This document shows, piece after piece, positions 54,616 through 57,884 of a stretch of 64,000 nt of DNA. Both the position numbers and the translations under genes were made by a program. This stretch comes from a virus, in the IMG/VR virus record IMGVR_UViG_3300015371_000015, positions 1 to 64,000 of that record. One strand, 5' to 3'. Within the stretch, counting starts at the first letter, position 1; each line of letters begins with the position of its first letter. The notes below the pieces were generated by a model that was given only the letters and a program-made list of their open reading frames with translations, made no database searches and was not told where the DNA came from.

Positions 54616-54746
54616 CCCGTTCGGGTCGAATGCAGTCGGTTAACTTGAGTTATTGGTTCGAGTCCAATATGCCTTCTTTGAGGGCATTGGCGCAATTGGC
54701 AGCGCAAAGTACATAAAACCCGGCAGCACCCTTACATCCGAACGGG
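54616..54746 (+). ncRNA. Y RNA / YrlA-like unit 1 (permuted tRNA-like domain)
   Basis: CCCGTTCGG/CCGAACGGG outer stem with GGGTCGAA..TACATCC core; T arm ATTGG-TTCGAGT-CCAAT, loop-closed acceptor-like stem, D arm GCGC-AATTGGCA-GCGC; adjacent to Ro60. Confidence 0.85.
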
Positions 54747-54775
54747 CTTCATCTATCCCACGCAGAGGAGAACGC

Positions 54776-56548
54776 ATGACCACGACTGACCCGTACGCGG
54801 GTTTCGGTACGCGACAGACCCACCAGCAGCACCGTGCTCCCGACCGACCGGAGCAGGTCAAGAACAACGCCGGCGGCTACGTCTTCCAGATCGATCCCCT
54901 GACCCAGCTCAAGCGGTTCCTGACCATCGGGACCGTCGGGGGATCCTACTACGTCGGCGAGAAGGAACTGACCCGTGAGAACGGTGAGATGATCCTGAGC
55001 TTCACGCGCAACCCCACCACGCACGCCCAGCTCGTCGACACCATCGTCGAGATCAGTCTCGCGGGCCGTGCACCCAAGCAGAACCCCACGCTGTTCGCCT
55101 TGGCCATCGCGTGCCAGCACGGCGACACCGCTTCCAAGCAGTACGCGCGCAAGCAGCTCACGAAGGTCGTCCGCACCGGTACCCACCTGTTCCTCTTCGT
55201 GGGTTACGTCCGGCAGTTCGGTGGCTGGAATCGTGGCATGCGGCGTGCAATCGGTGCGTGGTACTCCGAGAAGGACCCGGACAAGCTGGCCTACCAGCTG
55301 ATCAAGTACCGGCGTAGGAACGACCTCACCCACCGTGATGTCTTGCGGATGGCTCACCCGAAGATCAAGATGGACGAGGTCAACGAGCGGATCGCCATGC
55401 TCGATGCCGCGTTCCGGGCGAACGAGGACGACCCGAACACCAAGGAGCTCATGGCGGATGCTCTTCGGGCTCGCAACGAGCGGCTGAAGCTCCGGTCGAA
55501 CATCGACTGGACCATCAAGTACCAGAACCGGGACTACTCGGCGCTGGAGGGTGGAACCTCGAAGATCATCGAGGCGTTCGAGGCCTGCTGGCGTGAGCCG
55601 GAGAACATCCCGGCAATCATCAGCGACAACCCGGGGCTCCCCTGGGAGGCCTTGCCGGACGAGGCTCTGACCAAGGTGGAGACGTGGGACCGGCTGCTGG
55701 ACAACGGCATGCCCATCCACGCTCTGCTGCGTCAGCTCCCCCGTCTGACCAACCTCGGGATGCTGCCTCCGATGGGGGCCGGGCGTACGGACGATGTCAT
55801 CCACCAGCTCCTGAACCGTGAGGCGCTGGAGAGGGCTCGGATGCACCCGATCAACGTCCTGGTGGCGCTCAAGACCTATGCCTCCGGGCAGGGCGAGCGC
55901 AACCACTGGTCGCCGAACACCAAGATCATCGACGCGCTGGACGAGATGTTCTACCGCTCGTTCGGTTTCATCGAGCCCACAGGCAAGCGCATCTTGCAGG
56001 CCTGTGACATCTCGTACTCGATGATGGGAGCGAGGACCTTCGGTGGGAAGAAGCCTTTCCCGCTCTCACCGGCTGAGATCACCGGTGCGATGGCGTTGGC
56101 GACGGCTCACATCGAGCCCAACCACCACATCGTCGGGTTCTCCTCGCTCTCGGGGCAGAACAACCGGGATCCGCGGGACTCGAAGCTGATCGACCTCAAC
56201 ATCAGCAAGCGGCAGCGCATGGACGACGTCATCAACACGATGTACAACCGGACCTTCGGTGGTACGGACGTCGCGCTGCCCATGGTCGCCGCCTTGGAGC
56301 ACGGGTGGAAGATCGACACGTTCGTGATCTACACGGACAACGAGACCTGGCACGGGGATATTCATCCTCACCAGGCGCTCGAGCGTTACCGCCGGCAGAC
56401 CGGAATCGACGCACGCCTCGTGGTGTGTGCGATGTCTGCCTCCCACTTCAGTGTGGCCGACCCGAAGGACCCCCGTCAGCTCGACATCAGCGGCTTCGAC
56501 AGCGCGATGCCTCAGCTGATCTCGGAGTTCTCGGCCGGCAACATCTGA
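54776..56548 (+). CDS. rsr: Ro60 / TROVE-domain RNA-binding protein (Rsr-like) with C-terminal vWA domain
   Basis: N.AGG.VF, L.RFL.IG..GG.YY, VRTGTHLF.F, LAYQ..KY..R...THRD.LR.AHP, MP..ALLR.L, D.S.SM, GGTD.ALP, F..YTDNETW, GFD; GAGGAG RBS at 54776. Confidence 0.95.
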   Translation: MTTTDPYAGFGTRQTHQQHRAPDRPEQVKNNAGGYVFQIDPLTQLKRFLTIGTVGGSYYVGEKELTRENGEMILSFTRNPTTHAQLVDTIVEISLAGRAPKQNPTLFALAIACQHGDTASKQYARKQLTKVVRTGTHLFLFVGYVRQFGGWNRGMRRAIGAWYSEKDPDKLAYQLIKYRRRNDLTHRDVLRMAHPKIKMDEVNERIAMLDAAFRANEDDPNTKELMADALRARNERLKLRSNIDWTIKYQNRDYSALEGGTSKIIEAFEACWREPENIPAIISDNPGLPWEALPDEALTKVETWDRLLDNGMPIHALLRQLPRLTNLGMLPPMGAGRTDDVIHQLLNREALERARMHPINVLVALKTYASGQGERNHWSPNTKIIDALDEMFYRSFGFIEPTGKRILQACDISYSMMGARTFGGKKPFPLSPAEITGAMALATAHIEPNHHIVGFSSLSGQNNRDPRDSKLIDLNISKRQRMDDVINTMYNRTFGGTDVALPMVAALEHGWKIDTFVIYTDNETWHGDIHPHQALERYRRQTGIDARLVVCAMSASHFSVADPKDPRQLDISGFDSAMPQLISEFSAGNI

Positions 56549-56560
56549 GTACGTAGAGAA

Positions 56561-56700
56561 GCAGGGCCGGGTCGAAGATGATCGGTTAACTGGATAACAT
56601 TGGTTCAATCCCAATCCAGGTCTGGGCCCACAAGCCTGCCTGGCTCGCCACTTCGGTGGCAGATGAAAACATCCGGTCGTCACCCCACATCCGGCCCTGC
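56561..56700 (+). ncRNA. Y RNA-like unit 2
   Basis: GCAGGGCCGG/CCGGCCCTGC outer stem, same core; T arm ATTGG-TTCAATC-CCAAT; GCCAC-TTCG-GTGGC hairpin in the D-arm position. Confidence 0.8.
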
Positions 56701-56742
56701 CTCTCGCGTAGCAAACAACCTCCATAATAGGAGGTACCTATC

Positions 56743-57003
56743 ATGCCAAATCCCGACCGCCCGTTCAAGATCAGTGACCATGCCCGAACCAAGATGAGTT
56801 TGCGCGCGATTACGAAGGACGAAGTGTTCGACACCATCCTCGCCTACGAGAAGACAGACAAGAAGAGTAACCAGAAGCGTTATTTCAAAGGACGTCTTTG
56901 CGTAGTCGTGGGAGAAGGTCGCACCTTCGACACCATCATCACCGTGCTCCTCAACGAGTTCGACACATGGACTGATCACCACGCAAGAGATCGCAAGAAG
57001 TAG
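56743..57003 (+). CDS. DUF4258-like protein (putative RelE/BECR-fold ribonuclease)
   Basis: S.HA..KM..R.I...EV...I, L.VVV, IITV pattern; own promoter repeat and terminator. Confidence 0.6.
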   Translation: MPNPDRPFKISDHARTKMSLRAITKDEVFDTILAYEKTDKKSNQKRYFKGRLCVVVGEGRTFDTIITVLLNEFDTWTDHHARDRKK

Positions 57004-57072
57004 TACCCAAGCCTCACCCCGTTTCCACAAGGGGTTAGGTTTCGCTGCGGTCGCGAGGAAAACAACGCTTGT

Positions 57073-57125
57073 AATGAGAGGTAGGGTAGTAATACCCGGT
57101 AACCCGCCAGTTACGACCTCTTATT
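57073..57125 (+). ncRNA. putative small three-way-junction RNA
   Basis: AATGAGAGGT/ACCTCTTATT stem; GGGTA-GTAA-TACCC and GTAAC-ccgcca-GTTAC hairpins. Confidence 0.55.
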
Positions 57126-57148
57126 TCTTTGTCTCGGCTTGACTTAAA

Positions 57149-57285
57149 CAGCTCTGGGTCGAAGATGCATCGGTTATCAAATTGCCAGGGAGAAATCCCA
57201 CCCCCCTAGATAGGCTAATTACCTATCGACTTACTGATCACACTATTAGTAAGCAAACCGGTCATCACCTCTACATCCAGAGCTG
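57149..57285 (+). ncRNA. Y RNA-like unit 3 (non-tRNA three-hairpin insert)
   Basis: CAGCTCTGG/CCAGAGCTG outer stem, same core; inserts GGGA-GAAA-TCCC, GATAGG/CCTATC, CTTACTGAT/ATTAGTAAG. Confidence 0.8.
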
Positions 57286-57295
57286 CCTAAATTTC

Positions 57296-57369
57296 GATGC
57301 GGGTCGCTAGTCTTCGGTTATCAAACTCTCAATTTGAAGCCATCCGGAGACGTCAACCACATCCGCATC
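57296..57369 (+). ncRNA. Y RNA-like unit 4, minimal, with Glu-CUC anticodon stem-loop
   Basis: GATGCGG/CCGCATC outer stem; TCAAA-CTCTCAA-TTTGA at 57321-57337. Confidence 0.8.
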
Positions 57370-57495
57370 ACCTAAGACGGACCTTGGGCTATAGCAGGCG
57401 GCCCTTGGACGAAGGCCTCTAGGATACCGTCCAGAAGAGGACCAAGGCCGGTCGGGATGACCTCCCGCGGTATCCAAGTCTGCCCCCTAAGCTTC

Positions 57496-57636
57496 AGCGA
57501 CGTGGGTCGAAAGAGAATCGGTTAACTTTCCTCTCAAGAAAAAGACCCGGGTTCGAATCCCGGCGGGTGCATAGCACCTGTAGTTTAGTGGCCTAAAACT
57601 CAAAACATCGGTCCTCACCACTACATCTACGTCGTT
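57496..57636 (+). ncRNA. Y RNA-like unit 5, permuted tRNA-Glu(CUC)-like
   Basis: TTTC-CTCTCAA-GAAA anticodon arm, CCGGG-TTCGAAT-CCCGG T arm, CGGGTGC-ATA-GCACCTG acceptor, GTTT-AGTGGCCTA-AAAC D arm. Confidence 0.85.
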
Positions 57637-57645
57637 TAGTTTTGT

Positions 57646-57786
57646 GTCAGAGCGGGTCGAACTGGAATTCGGTTACCTCTGCGGAAGGAGTATTGTCGGT
57701 TCGAGTCCGGCCGTCCCCGTTAGGGGATGTAGTGTAATTGGCAACACGCTAAAATCCCGGAATCCTCCCTTTACATCCGCTCTGAC
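57646..57786 (+). ncRNA. Y RNA-like unit 6, permuted tRNA-Arg(GCG)-like
   Basis: CCT-CTGCGGA-AGG anticodon arm, GTCGG-TTCGAGT-CCGGC T arm, CGTCCCC-GTTA-GGGGATG acceptor, GTGT-AATTGGCA-ACAC D arm. Confidence 0.85.
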
Positions 57787-57801
57787 CCATATTTGCACAA
57801 C

Positions 57802-57884
57802 CCTGTTCGGGTCGAATTGAATCGGTTATCATTCGACTGCTAATCGGAAACCGACGCCGGTTCAAACCCCTACATCCGAACAGG
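57802..57884 (+). ncRNA. Y RNA-like unit 7, minimal, with Ser-GCU anticodon stem-loop
   Basis: CCTGTTCGG/CCGAACAGG outer stem; TTCGA-CTGCTAA-TCGGA at 57832-57848. Confidence 0.8.

What the first reader, a model, noticed from the sequence alone, without database searches (positions are those of the whole stretch)
54616..57884. Phage Ro60 with an array of seven Y-RNA-like scaffolds carrying interchangeable payloads
Seen: seven units (54616-54746, 56561-56700, 57149-57285, 57296-57369, 57496-57636, 57646-57786, 57802-57884) share the layout outer stem-GGGTCG(AA)-stem-TCGGTTA-[insert]-(C/T)CGG-stem-ACATC(C)-outer stem. Both helices differ in sequence between copies but always pair (e.g. TTGAATCGG/CCGGTTCAA, GTCTTCGG/CCGGAGAC, GATGATCGG/CCGGTCGTC), which is covariation. 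Inserts range from one hairpin to a whole permuted tRNA. Established: Ro60/Rsr binds a bulged helix made by the 5' and 3' ends of Y RNAs, and bacterial YrlA RNAs have a T-arm/closed-acceptor/D-arm module; Ro plus YrlA has been reported in bacteria and some actinophages, typically with one or two RNAs. Inference: this is a modular ribonucleoprotein system in which one phage Ro60 stabilises and displays a library of different RNA cargos. I do not know of such an expanded array being described.
Basis: partly seen in the sequence, partly recalled or inferred. Interest (0 to 1): 0.95.

Follow-up and report, generated by a model that had tools for sequence, protein, structure and literature searches.

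The report
Seven Y RNA genes around phage Ro60
An uncultivated soil phage of actinobacteria carries seven small RNA genes around its Ro60 gene that share one conserved Ro60-type "handle" and carry different inner parts, some of them tRNA look-alikes; such arrays prove common but unannotated in already sequenced phages, so this one is real but not unique.

Summary
The motif GGGTCG-N5-12-TCGGTTA occurs exactly seven times, all on the + strand beside a genuine Ro60 gene (0.01 expected). Both helices covary: 95 of 98 cells pair at 15 variable positions, against 59 in shuffles.

A covariance model built mostly from other phages' units finds exactly these seven in the 79.7-kb genome. The handle carries the published YrlA signatures (GNCGAA, YUAY). 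U1, U5 and U6 carry the T arm, closed acceptor and D arm module. Once rotated, U5 and U6 are called tRNA-Glu(CUC) and tRNA-Arg(GCG) by ARAGORN.

The claim of uniqueness fails. The same handle occurs 10 times in Rhodococcus phage Trina, 7 in Sixama, 6 in A3Wally, 5 in ET08 and 2-4 beside bacterial rsr genes. It tracks Ro60 tightly. None of these units is annotated as a Y RNA. In the library I could search, no paper describes more than two Y RNAs per phage.

This is therefore an expanded YrlA/YrlB-type Y RNA family, a new variant of a known kind. Ro60 binding, expression and any "cargo display" or decoy role remain untested.

Earlier notes of this scan report similar Ro60-plus-array loci on other DNA.

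The parts
54616..54746 (+). U1: YrlA-type Y RNA. Handle plus T arm, 8-bp closed acceptor-like hairpin and D arm; no hairpin before the T arm.
   Evidence: R2 hit 54618-54744, 38.7 bits. Rfam YrlA 35.0 bits over the full model 1-114. Fold.
54776..56548 (+). Ro60 (Rsr) gene, 590 aa.
   Evidence: Pfam TROVE 5.8e-39 and vWA_Ro60 4.8e-51. PDB 1YVP 9e-95, 9NEN 2e-87, 2NVO 2e-77. K170, R174 and H187 equivalents conserved in the alignment.
56561..56700 (+). U2: handle plus T arm, a long closed stem and a UUCG hairpin in place of a D arm (degenerate YrlA type).
   Evidence: R2 hit 56564-56697, 45.7 bits. Fold.
57149..57285 (+). U3: handle plus three hairpins, with no T loop.
   Evidence: R2 hit 57151-57283, 33.5 bits. 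Fold.
57296..57369 (+). U4: minimal unit. Handle plus one hairpin, UCAAA[CUCUCAA]UUUGA; the handle motif is GUCGCU instead of GUCGAA.
   Evidence: R2 56.8 bits. Loop identical to the anticodon loop of a real phage tRNA-Glu(CUC).
57496..57636 (+). U5: handle plus a complete permuted tRNA-like body: anticodon-like arm with loop CUCUCAA, T arm, 7-bp closed acceptor stem, D arm.
   Evidence: R2 hit 57499-57633, 39.1 bits. Rfam YrlA 27.2 bits. Rotated sequence called tRNA-Glu(CUC) by ARAGORN.
57646..57786 (+). U6: handle plus a complete permuted tRNA-like body with loop CUGCGGA.
   Evidence: R2 hit 57649-57783, 26.9 bits. Rfam YrlA 24.5 bits. Rotated sequence called tRNA-Arg(GCG) by ARAGORN; with a junction 2 nt away it is called Pro(CGG).
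57802..57884 (+). U7: minimal unit. Handle plus one hairpin, UUCGA[CUGCUAA]UCGGA.
   Evidence: R2 hit 57804-57882, 55.6 bits. The same loop recurs in units of A3Wally, Sixama and an IMG/VR phage with different stems.
53393..53413 (+). Promoter-like phage motif AAACAAC-N6-TAATGAGA, upstream of ORF85, the Pistol ribozyme, the 757-nt stretch, U1, Ro60 and U2. Its role as a promoter is inferred.
   Evidence: 9 matches in the window, 0 expected, all on the + strand.
57060..57080 (+). The same promoter-like motif, 69 nt upstream of U3. It suggests that U3-U7 are made as one precursor (inferred; spacers are 9-15 nt except for the 126-nt stretch between U4 and U5).
   Evidence: spacing read.

Best explanation
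The seven units are paralogous Y RNA genes of the bacterial/phage YrlA-YrlB class, partners of the Ro60 protein encoded between U1 and U2.

Each RNA closes its 5' and 3' ends into a conserved two-helix handle: outer stem, bulged internal loop with GUCGAA on the 5' strand and ACCnCUAC on the 3' strand, then a second stem ending UCGG/CCGG followed by UUAY. By homology this handle is the Ro60 binding site.

The interior is variable. U1 has a T arm, closed acceptor and D arm. U2 has a degenerate version of that module. U3 has three hairpins. U4 and U7 have a single anticodon-arm-like hairpin. U5 and U6 have a whole permuted tRNA look-alike.

The likely mechanism is as follows. The RNAs are transcribed from phage promoters as precursors (U1-Ro60-U2, and U3-U7) and trimmed at the outer stems. 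Each then occupies the outer surface of a phage Ro60 ring. Its variable module determines which partner (tRNA enzymes, RNase P, PNPase-type exonucleases or other tRNA-binding proteins) the ribonucleoprotein meets.

What is shown here: sequence and structure conservation, covariation, and strict genomic association with Ro60. What is inferred: transcription, processing, Ro60 binding and the role of the modules.
For: - Ro60 identity.
- Seven units against 0.01 expected.
- Covariation within the window, 95/98 against 58.7.
- Family-level covariation over 51 units from 13 phages: 91.4% of cells paired, 16 of 17 pairs with changes on both sides, score 0.83 against 0.275 in shuffles and 0.10-0.16 for slid partners.
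- Model R2, built mainly from other phages, finds exactly the seven.
- All 51 hits in 14 Ro-oriented loci lie on the Ro60 strand.
- Of 100 IMG/VR loci picked only by a 15-nt pattern, 24 have handle units and 15 of those encode Ro60 inside the locus. None of the 76 loci without units does.
- Bacterial rsr loci carry 1-4 units directly upstream.
- The published YrlA signatures GNCGAAN0-1G and YUAY and the T/AS/D arms are present: (PMC4201824).
- The Rfam YrlA score of U1 (35.0) equals that of the published ET08 YrlA (37.4).
- A phage Ro60 has been shown by EMSA and cryo-EM to bind two adjacent CGAA-bearing Y-like RNAs (PMC12135203).
Against: - There is no expression, processing or binding evidence for this phage. 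No RNA run is listed.
- No unit reaches Rfam's YrlA gathering score of 69 bits.
- U4 has GUCGCU rather than GNCGAA. U6 and U7 have two bases, not 0-1, before the following G.
- U3, U4 and U7 lack the tRNA-like T/AS/D module that defines YrlA.
- The promoter role of the repeated motif is an inference, and the sigma-70 consensus scan found none.
Confidence: 0.85

Rival explanations
1. Decoy or bait array. The handle-tagged anticodon arms and whole tRNA mimics (Glu-CUC twice, Arg-GCG, Ser-GCU) serve mainly as decoys, sponges or sensors for host tRNA-targeting nucleases or tRNA-modifying enzymes. Ro60 protects them from decay. This extends the best explanation rather than excluding it.
For: - The U4 and U5 loops CUCUCAA equal the anticodon loop of a real phage tRNA-Glu(CUC). 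The U6 loop CUGCGGA differs by one base from a real tRNA-Arg(GCG) loop.
- The loops CUGCUAA and CUCUCAA recur in different phages on different stems.
- 19 of 135 units have a 7-nt Y-U-NNN-R-N loop directly after the handle, against 0.9% of shuffles.
- By that scan all 19 are in the 100 phage-derived units and none in the 37 bacterial units. A broader scan gives 26/100 against 3/37, p 0.03, uncorrected for relatedness.
- This phage has no ordinary tRNA genes.
- tRNA-targeting defences and counter-measures based on phage tRNAs are documented (PMC10264068, PMC11555353).
Against: - There is no functional evidence.
- Most units in most phages lack such a loop.
- Published work reads the hairpin as the 'V' arm of YrlA, a tRNA relic that needs no decoy role.
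- The phage-versus-bacterium contrast is weak once orthologues are discounted.
Confidence: 0.12
2. The shared handle is chiefly an RNA-processing signal, a double-stranded cut site that releases small RNAs from a polycistronic precursor. It would act independently of Ro60.
For: The outer stems sit exactly at the unit boundaries, with spacers of 9-15 nt. In Sixama the units are interleaved with tRNA genes that also need processing.
Against: - The conserved bases lie in the internal loop and at the UCGGUUA junction, not only in the terminal helix.
- The motif is the published Ro60-contact motif.
- The handle co-occurs with Ro60 (15 of 24 against 0 of 76 loci) and always lies on its strand.
Confidence: 0.05
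3. U5 and U6 are genuine permuted or split tRNA genes that are matured into working tRNAs. The other units are decayed copies.
For: - The rotated inserts are called tRNA-Glu(CUC) and tRNA-Arg(GCG) at ARAGORN defaults.
- Both have 7-bp acceptor stems, as does M. smegmatis YrlA, which RNase P cuts and which receives CCA in vivo.
- The phage has no other tRNA genes.
Against: - The acceptor end is closed by a 3-4-nt loop and no CCA is encoded.
- The roughly 45-nt handle interrupts the body between the D arm and the anticodon-like arm, and there are no intron-type bulge-helix-bulge motifs.
- The handle is under purifying selection in all seven units.
- In native order the Rfam tRNA score is 21.4, below the threshold of 29.
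Confidence: 0.03

Closest known systems
YrlA / YrlB Y RNAs of bacteria and mycobacteriophages (Chen et al. 2014, PMC4201824; Rfam RF02553)
   Same: - Encoded next to Ro60/rsr on the same strand.
- GNCGAA(N)G on the 5' strand of a bulged end-to-end stem, with YUAY after the second stem.
- T arm, closed acceptor stem and D arm in U1, U5 and U6.
- A second, shorter Y RNA lies beside the tRNA-like one.
- The handle of the published ET08 YrlA belongs to the same covariance model.
   Different: - Seven paralogues here, against the one best hit per genome reported for phages and the two (YrlA, YrlB) shown experimentally in bacteria.
- Minimal units (U4, U7) carry nothing but an anticodon-arm look-alike, and U3 has no tRNA feature.
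- No unit reaches the Rfam gathering score.
Thermus phage phiLo Ro60 with Yrl1 and Yrl2 (PMC12135203, 2025)
   Same: Phage-encoded Ro60 with adjacent Y-like RNAs, identified by a stem-bulge-stem and the CGAA motif. Direct binding was shown there.
   Different: Two RNAs, not seven. No tRNA-like payloads are mentioned in the passages I read. I did not test sequence homology of the handles because the phiLo sequence was not fetched.
Unannotated handle arrays in isolated actinophages: Trina (10), Sixama (7), A3Wally (6), ET08 and Belfort (5)
   Same: The same handle family by model R2, the same strand as Ro60, and the same mix of long (110-148 nt) and short (62-90 nt) units.
   Different: In those phages the units are interleaved with, or adjacent to, large arrays of ordinary tRNA genes, and a tmRNA in Sixama. 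The window phage has no ordinary tRNA gene. A DUF4258 ORF splits its array.
Metazoan Y RNAs bound by Ro60 (Rfam RF00019; Xenopus Ro-Y RNA structure 1YVP)
   Same: The 5' and 3' ends form a helix with a bulged C and a conserved G-rich 5' strand. There are several paralogues per genome (two to four in vertebrates).
   Different: There is no Rfam Y_RNA hit. The 3' strand motif and the second-stem junction UCGGUUA are specific to the bacterial and phage family. Metazoan Y RNAs have no tRNA-like module.

Membership tests
YrlA-type Y RNA (Chen 2014; Rfam RF02553) | Encoded within about 4 kb of a Ro60/TROVE gene, on the same strand | tested here: met
   All seven units lie on the + strand, between 30 nt upstream and 1.34 kb downstream of Ro60 at 54776-56548.
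YrlA-type Y RNA (Chen 2014; Rfam RF02553) | GNCGAAN0-1G motif near the 5' end | tested here: met
   U1 GUCGAAUG, U2 and U3 GUCGAAG, and U5 GUCGAAAG fit exactly. U6 and U7 have two bases before the G. U4 has GUCGCUAG, which deviates.
YrlA-type Y RNA (Chen 2014; Rfam RF02553) | 5' and 3' ends pair into a bulged stem | tested here: met
   Outer stems of 9-12 bp plus a second stem of 8-9 bp, with covariation.
YrlA-type Y RNA (Chen 2014; Rfam RF02553) | tRNA-like module: T arm, closed acceptor-like stem, D arm | tested here: met
   Present in U1, U5 and U6 (Rfam YrlA alignments; ARAGORN on rotated U5 and U6). Partial in U2 (T arm only). Absent in U3, U4 and U7, which are therefore YrlB-like rather than YrlA.
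YrlA-type Y RNA (Chen 2014; Rfam RF02553) | Score at or above Rfam's gathering threshold (69 bits) | tested here: not met
   U1 35.0, U5 27.2 and U6 24.5 bits. The threshold also rejects the published ET08 YrlA (37.4 bits) and those of Sixama (46.8) and FuzzBuster (33.3). It is therefore uninformative for actinophage members.
YrlA-type Y RNA (Chen 2014; Rfam RF02553) | Bound by Ro60/Rsr in vivo or in vitro | not testable with these tools
   Needs RIP, EMSA or a structure. Indirect only: the Ro60 residues aligned to Xenopus K170, R174 and H187 are conserved. Their role is recalled from the literature and was not checked here.
   All seven units, E 2e-11 to 3e-4, model positions 1-71.
tRNA (RF00005 / ARAGORN) | Cloverleaf in native order with open acceptor ends | tested here: not met
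   ARAGORN finds 0 genes in the window and in the rest of the genome. The Rfam tRNA score is 21.4, below 29. Only artificially rotated U5 and U6 are called.

The most novel reading that the evidence does not exclude
Ro60-encoding phages have turned the Y RNA handle into a general tag. It presents authentic-looking anticodon arms and whole tRNA bodies (here Glu-CUC twice, Arg-GCG, Ser-GCU) on a nuclease-resistant Ro60 particle. These act as decoys, sensors or repair templates against host tRNA-targeting toxins and defences. The anticodon-loop payloads would then be a phage-specific elaboration, selected loop by loop.
Probability: 0.12. Interest if true: 0.8.

Novelty: new variant of a known kind. 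Interest (0 to 1): 0.45.

Why it matters
The job of the tRNA-like part of bacterial Y RNAs is an open question. This locus, together with the unannotated arrays found here in easily grown phages (ET08/Bxz1-type on M. smegmatis, Sixama on Gordonia terrae, Trina on Rhodococcus, A3Wally and FuzzBuster on Microbacterium), shows three things:
- One Ro60 protein commonly has many RNA partners.
- The handle is separable from the payload.
- Some payloads copy specific anticodon loops.

This gives a testable series: same handle, different module. It also gives a covariance model that could add hundreds of missing ncRNA annotations to actinophage genomes.

It does not reveal a new kind of system. Ro60 with Y RNAs in phages has been published since 2014, and binding was shown for a phage in 2025.

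Tried and rejected
- Rfam at gathering thresholds finds only a Pistol ribozyme in the window and no YrlA in any phage locus. The YrlA threshold is too strict for these phages.
- ARAGORN in native order finds nothing.
- An exact-pattern scan of IMG/VR with GGGTCGAA-N3-10-TCGGTTA gave 118 single-match loci. Most are chance hits, though 24 of the first 100 proved real.
- Two home-made stem-plus-motif scanners were too noisy in GC-rich DNA: forward, reverse and control counts were similar. They served only to pick seed units.
- MAFFT alignment of the seven full units misaligned the 3' strands.
- Model R1, built from short units only, missed or mispaired the window's long units even with filters off. 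R2 fixed this.
- A single-protein search of IMG/VR for Ro60 relatives gave only 3 loci.
- No RNA holder is listed among public runs. DNA contigs of four rhizosphere runs are identical to the window over the parts they cover, so they add no natural variation.
- The reviews PMC10870794 and PMC6542706 are not held. I cannot exclude that they mention larger arrays.
- The 126-nt stretch between U4 and U5 (57370-57495) folds no better than shuffles (z -0.7) and matches neither R2 nor Rfam.
- I considered and rejected the reading that the units are ordinary or decayed tRNA genes or attachment-site repeats. The handle, not the tRNA-like part, is the conserved and covarying element.

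
Full report
**1. What is in the sequence**

The ORF at 54776-56548 (+) encodes a 590-aa Ro60.
- Pfam gives TROVE (5.8e-39) and the Ro60 vWA domain (4.8e-51).
- Against solved structures it matches Xenopus Ro60 1YVP at 9e-95, human RO60 at 2e-87 and Deinococcus Rsr 2NVO at 2e-77.
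- In that alignment the residues opposite Xenopus K170, R174 and H187 are K, R and H. I recall these as needed for binding Y RNA and misfolded RNA. That is memory, not a test.
- The nearest phage Ro60 proteins are only about 45% identical (FuzzBuster, Cashline). 354 phage records carry a relative, nearly all of them actinophages.
- The window belongs to a 79,660-bp IMG/VR virus record rated complete.
- The stretch around Ro60 (54600-57900) is held by rhizosphere metagenome runs.

**2. The seven units**

Only 0.01 matches are expected. It occurs nowhere else in the genome.

Each unit folds into the same frame:
- an outer stem of 9-12 bp whose inner end is GGGU/AUCC;
- an internal loop with CGAA on the 5' side and ACCnCUAC on the 3' side;
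- a second stem of 8-9 bp ending UCGG/CCGG;
- then UUA and the insert.

The helix sequences differ between units yet pair. At the 15 variable pair columns, 95 of 98 cells are standard pairs, against 58.7 +/- 3.7 when 3' partners are shuffled (0 of 20,000 shuffles reach 95). The exceptions are an A.A or A.C mismatch at one stem-2 position in U1, U5 and U6, and a bulged C in U3.

**3. The handle is a family, and it belongs to Ro60**

I seeded a covariance model with eleven short units: U4 and U7, plus units found upstream of Ro60 in FuzzBuster, ET08, Tonenili, Sixama and JimJam. I then rebuilt it from 25 hits, of which only two come from the window (R2).

- With filters off, R2 finds exactly the seven units in the 64-kb window (E 2e-11 to 3e-4; next hit E 0.72). 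It finds seven in the whole genome.
- Over 14 loci oriented with Ro60 on the + strand it gives 51 hits, all on the + strand.
- On that alignment 91.4% of cells pair, and 16 of 17 pairs show changes on both sides. The covariation score is 0.83, against 0.275 for shuffles and 0.10-0.16 for slid partners. The alignment was fitted to the model, which favours the structure, but the margin is large.
- I took 100 IMG/VR loci fetched only because they contain a 15-nt pattern. Of these, 24 contain R2 units, and 15 of those 24 encode Ro60 inside the often short locus. None of the 76 loci without units does. Two of the nine 'unit only' loci lie on contigs where Ro60 sits just outside the locus (L030 with L126, L047 with L026).
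- Bacterial rsr loci of Promicromonospora, Kribbella, Propionibacteriaceae and others carry one to four units, mostly directly upstream of rsr.

**4. Comparison with what is published**

Chen et al. 2014 (PMC4201824) defined YrlA RNAs by four features: a GNCGAAN0-1G motif on the 5' strand; a conserved YUAY that begins a 'V' loop; T and D arms flanking a closed acceptor-like stem; and a location within 4 kb of Ro60 on the same strand. They found such RNAs in 254 bacteria and 22 phages but reported only the best hit per genome. They showed two Rsr-bound RNAs, YrlA and YrlB, in Salmonella and M. smegmatis.

The window's handle contains GUCGAA(N)G and UUAY.
- Rfam's YrlA model aligns U1 over its full length (35.0 bits).
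- It aligns the T/AS/D part of U5 (27.2 bits) and of U6 (24.5 bits).
- These scores are below the gathering score of 69. So are the published ET08 YrlA (37.4) and those of Sixama (46.8) and FuzzBuster (33.3). Failing that threshold therefore says little.

A 2025 paper showed by EMSA and cryo-EM that Thermus phage phiLo Ro60 binds two adjacent CGAA-bearing Y-like RNAs and forms a complex with host PNPase (PMC12135203).

The units are thus Y RNAs of a known class. U1, U5 and U6 (and loosely U2) are YrlA-like. U4 and U7 are short, YrlB-like. U3 is a third type.

**5. Is a seven-unit array unusual?**

No. Whole-record R2 counts at E <= 0.01:

| Phage or record | Units |
|---|---|
| Rhodococcus phage Trina | 10 |
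| Gordonia phage Sixama | 7 |
| the window phage | 7 |
| Microbacterium phage A3Wally | 6 |
| Mycobacterium phage ET08 | 5 |
| Streptomyces phage Belfort | 5 |
| Streptomyces phage JimJam | 4 |
| Microbacterium phage FuzzBuster | 3 |
| Gordonia phage Cashline | 2 |
| Mycobacterium phage Sparky | 2 |

- Uncultivated phage contigs show up to six units.
- In ET08, three units lie directly upstream of Ro60 and two lie about 35 kb away.
- In Sixama the units fill exactly the unannotated gaps between the tmRNA and tRNA genes.
- None of the units is annotated as a Y RNA in the GenBank tables I read. Trina has a 'tRNA-OTHER' pseudo feature over two of them.
- My four literature searches found no paper describing more than two Y RNAs in a phage. 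Two reviews that might do so are not held.
- Notes from earlier sessions of this scan report Ro60-like genes with arrays of 4 to 11 handle-tagged RNAs in other phages. These are unchecked leads and not evidence, but they show the pattern has been seen before in this scan on other DNA.

**6. The payloads**

Across 137 units, about half are short (under 100 nt) and half long. The pattern of one handle with different interiors is therefore a property of the family, not of this phage.

In the window:
- U5 and U6 contain every tRNA arm in permuted order: anticodon-like arm, 4-5 nt, T arm, 7-bp acceptor stem closed by a 3-4-nt loop, two bases, D arm.
- After rotation at the acceptor loop, ARAGORN calls them tRNA-Glu(CUC) and tRNA-Arg(GCG) at default settings. 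For U6 the call shifts to Pro(CGG) if the artificial junction is moved by 2 nt.
- Topologically the handle's second stem sits where Chen et al. place the anticodon stem, and the extra hairpin is their 'V' arm. The two descriptions are the same five-helix junction.

What is new to me is that this hairpin often has a 7-nt loop built like an anticodon loop.
- U4 and U5 have CUCUCAA, identical to the loop of JimJam's real tRNA-Glu(CUC).
- U6 has CUGCGGA, against UUGCGGA in Belfort's tRNA-Arg(GCG).
- U7 has CUGCUAA.
- CUGCUAA recurs in A3Wally, Sixama and an IMG/VR phage. CUCUCAA recurs in the closest Ro60 relative. In each case the stems differ.
- Such loops directly after the handle occur in 19 of 135 units, against 0.9% of shuffled segments. 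All 19 are phage units.
- A looser scan gives 26 of 100 phage units against 3 of 37 bacterial units (p 0.03, not corrected for shared ancestry).
- This is suggestive only. It is the basis of the decoy reading, which I rate at about 0.12.

**7. Transcription context (inferred)**

A motif AAACAAC-N6-TAATGAGA occurs nine times in the window, all on the + strand, with none expected. Three copies lie in this locus:
- at 53393, before a small ORF, a Pistol ribozyme, a 757-nt ORF-poor stretch, U1, Ro60 and U2;
- at 56713, before a DUF4258 ORF;
- at 57060, before U3-U7.

Apart from the 126-nt stretch between U4 and U5, the units from U3 to U7 are separated by only 9-15 nt. This fits processing from a common precursor, as shown for M. 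smegmatis YrlA and YrlB. The sigma-70 consensus scan found no promoter, and I have no RNA data.

**8. Verdict**

- The interpretation as Y-RNA-like partners of the phage Ro60 is well supported by homology, covariation and genomic association.
- The 'library of cargos displayed by one Ro60' is an untested inference.
- The claim that the array is exceptional is wrong, because equal or larger arrays exist in well-known phages.
- The finding is an expanded, payload-diverse instance of a known system.
- The broader result is worth moderate interest, chiefly because it can be tested directly in cultivable phages: multi-unit handle arrays are widespread and unannotated, and some payloads copy specific anticodon loops.

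Noticed in passing
window 53796-53858 (+): Pistol self-cleaving ribozyme, 60.8 bits (gathering score 34.5), starting 2 nt after the stop of the 85-aa ORF at 53537-53794. It would sever that mRNA from the downstream non-coding stretch, U1 and Ro60.
   Followed up: partly
window 53859-54615 (+): A 757-nt ORF-poor stretch between the Pistol ribozyme and U1 folds better than shuffles (z -3.1, only 20 shuffles). It has no Rfam hit and no handle. It may be a large structured RNA or a long leader.
   Followed up: partly
window 56743-57003 (+): An 86-aa DUF4258 ORF (28.8 bits, cutoff 25) with its own copy of the promoter-like motif sits between U2 and U3, inside the Y RNA array. I saw no neighbouring antitoxin-like ORF.
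   Followed up: partly
window 34309, 34492, 37440, 39080, 53393, 56713, 57060, 61941, 62560 (+): The repeated motif AAACAAC-N6-TAATGAGA occurs 9 times, all on the + strand, with none expected. It is likely a phage-specific promoter or regulatory site.
   Followed up: partly
whole genome (window plus L146 = 64001-79660): ARAGORN finds no tRNA or tmRNA gene anywhere in this 79.7-kb phage. In most other Ro60 phages I looked at, the Ro60 gene sits inside a tRNA array.
   Followed up: partly
window 57370-57495 (+): The 126-nt spacer between U4 and U5 has no handle and no Rfam hit, and folds no better than shuffles (z -0.7). I see no support for a separate structured element there.
   Followed up: partly
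L135 (Gordonia phage Sixama) 7425-8172; L138 (Rhodococcus phage Trina) 3448-4876: In Sixama the handle units occupy the unannotated gaps between the tmRNA and successive tRNA genes. In Trina a 'tRNA-OTHER' pseudo feature (4607-4815) overlaps two units. These public annotations miss an entire ncRNA family.
   Followed up: partly
W02 = ET08 record NC_013650.1, 92487-92605 and 93415-93525: Two further handle units lie about 35 kb away from the ET08 Ro60 gene, so not all partners are encoded beside Ro60.
   Followed up: no
L147, L149, L150, L153-L155, L170 (Promicromonospora and relatives): Besides units directly upstream of rsr, these bacterial loci have a pair of handle units on the opposite strand 1.5-2.7 kb upstream.
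   Followed up: no
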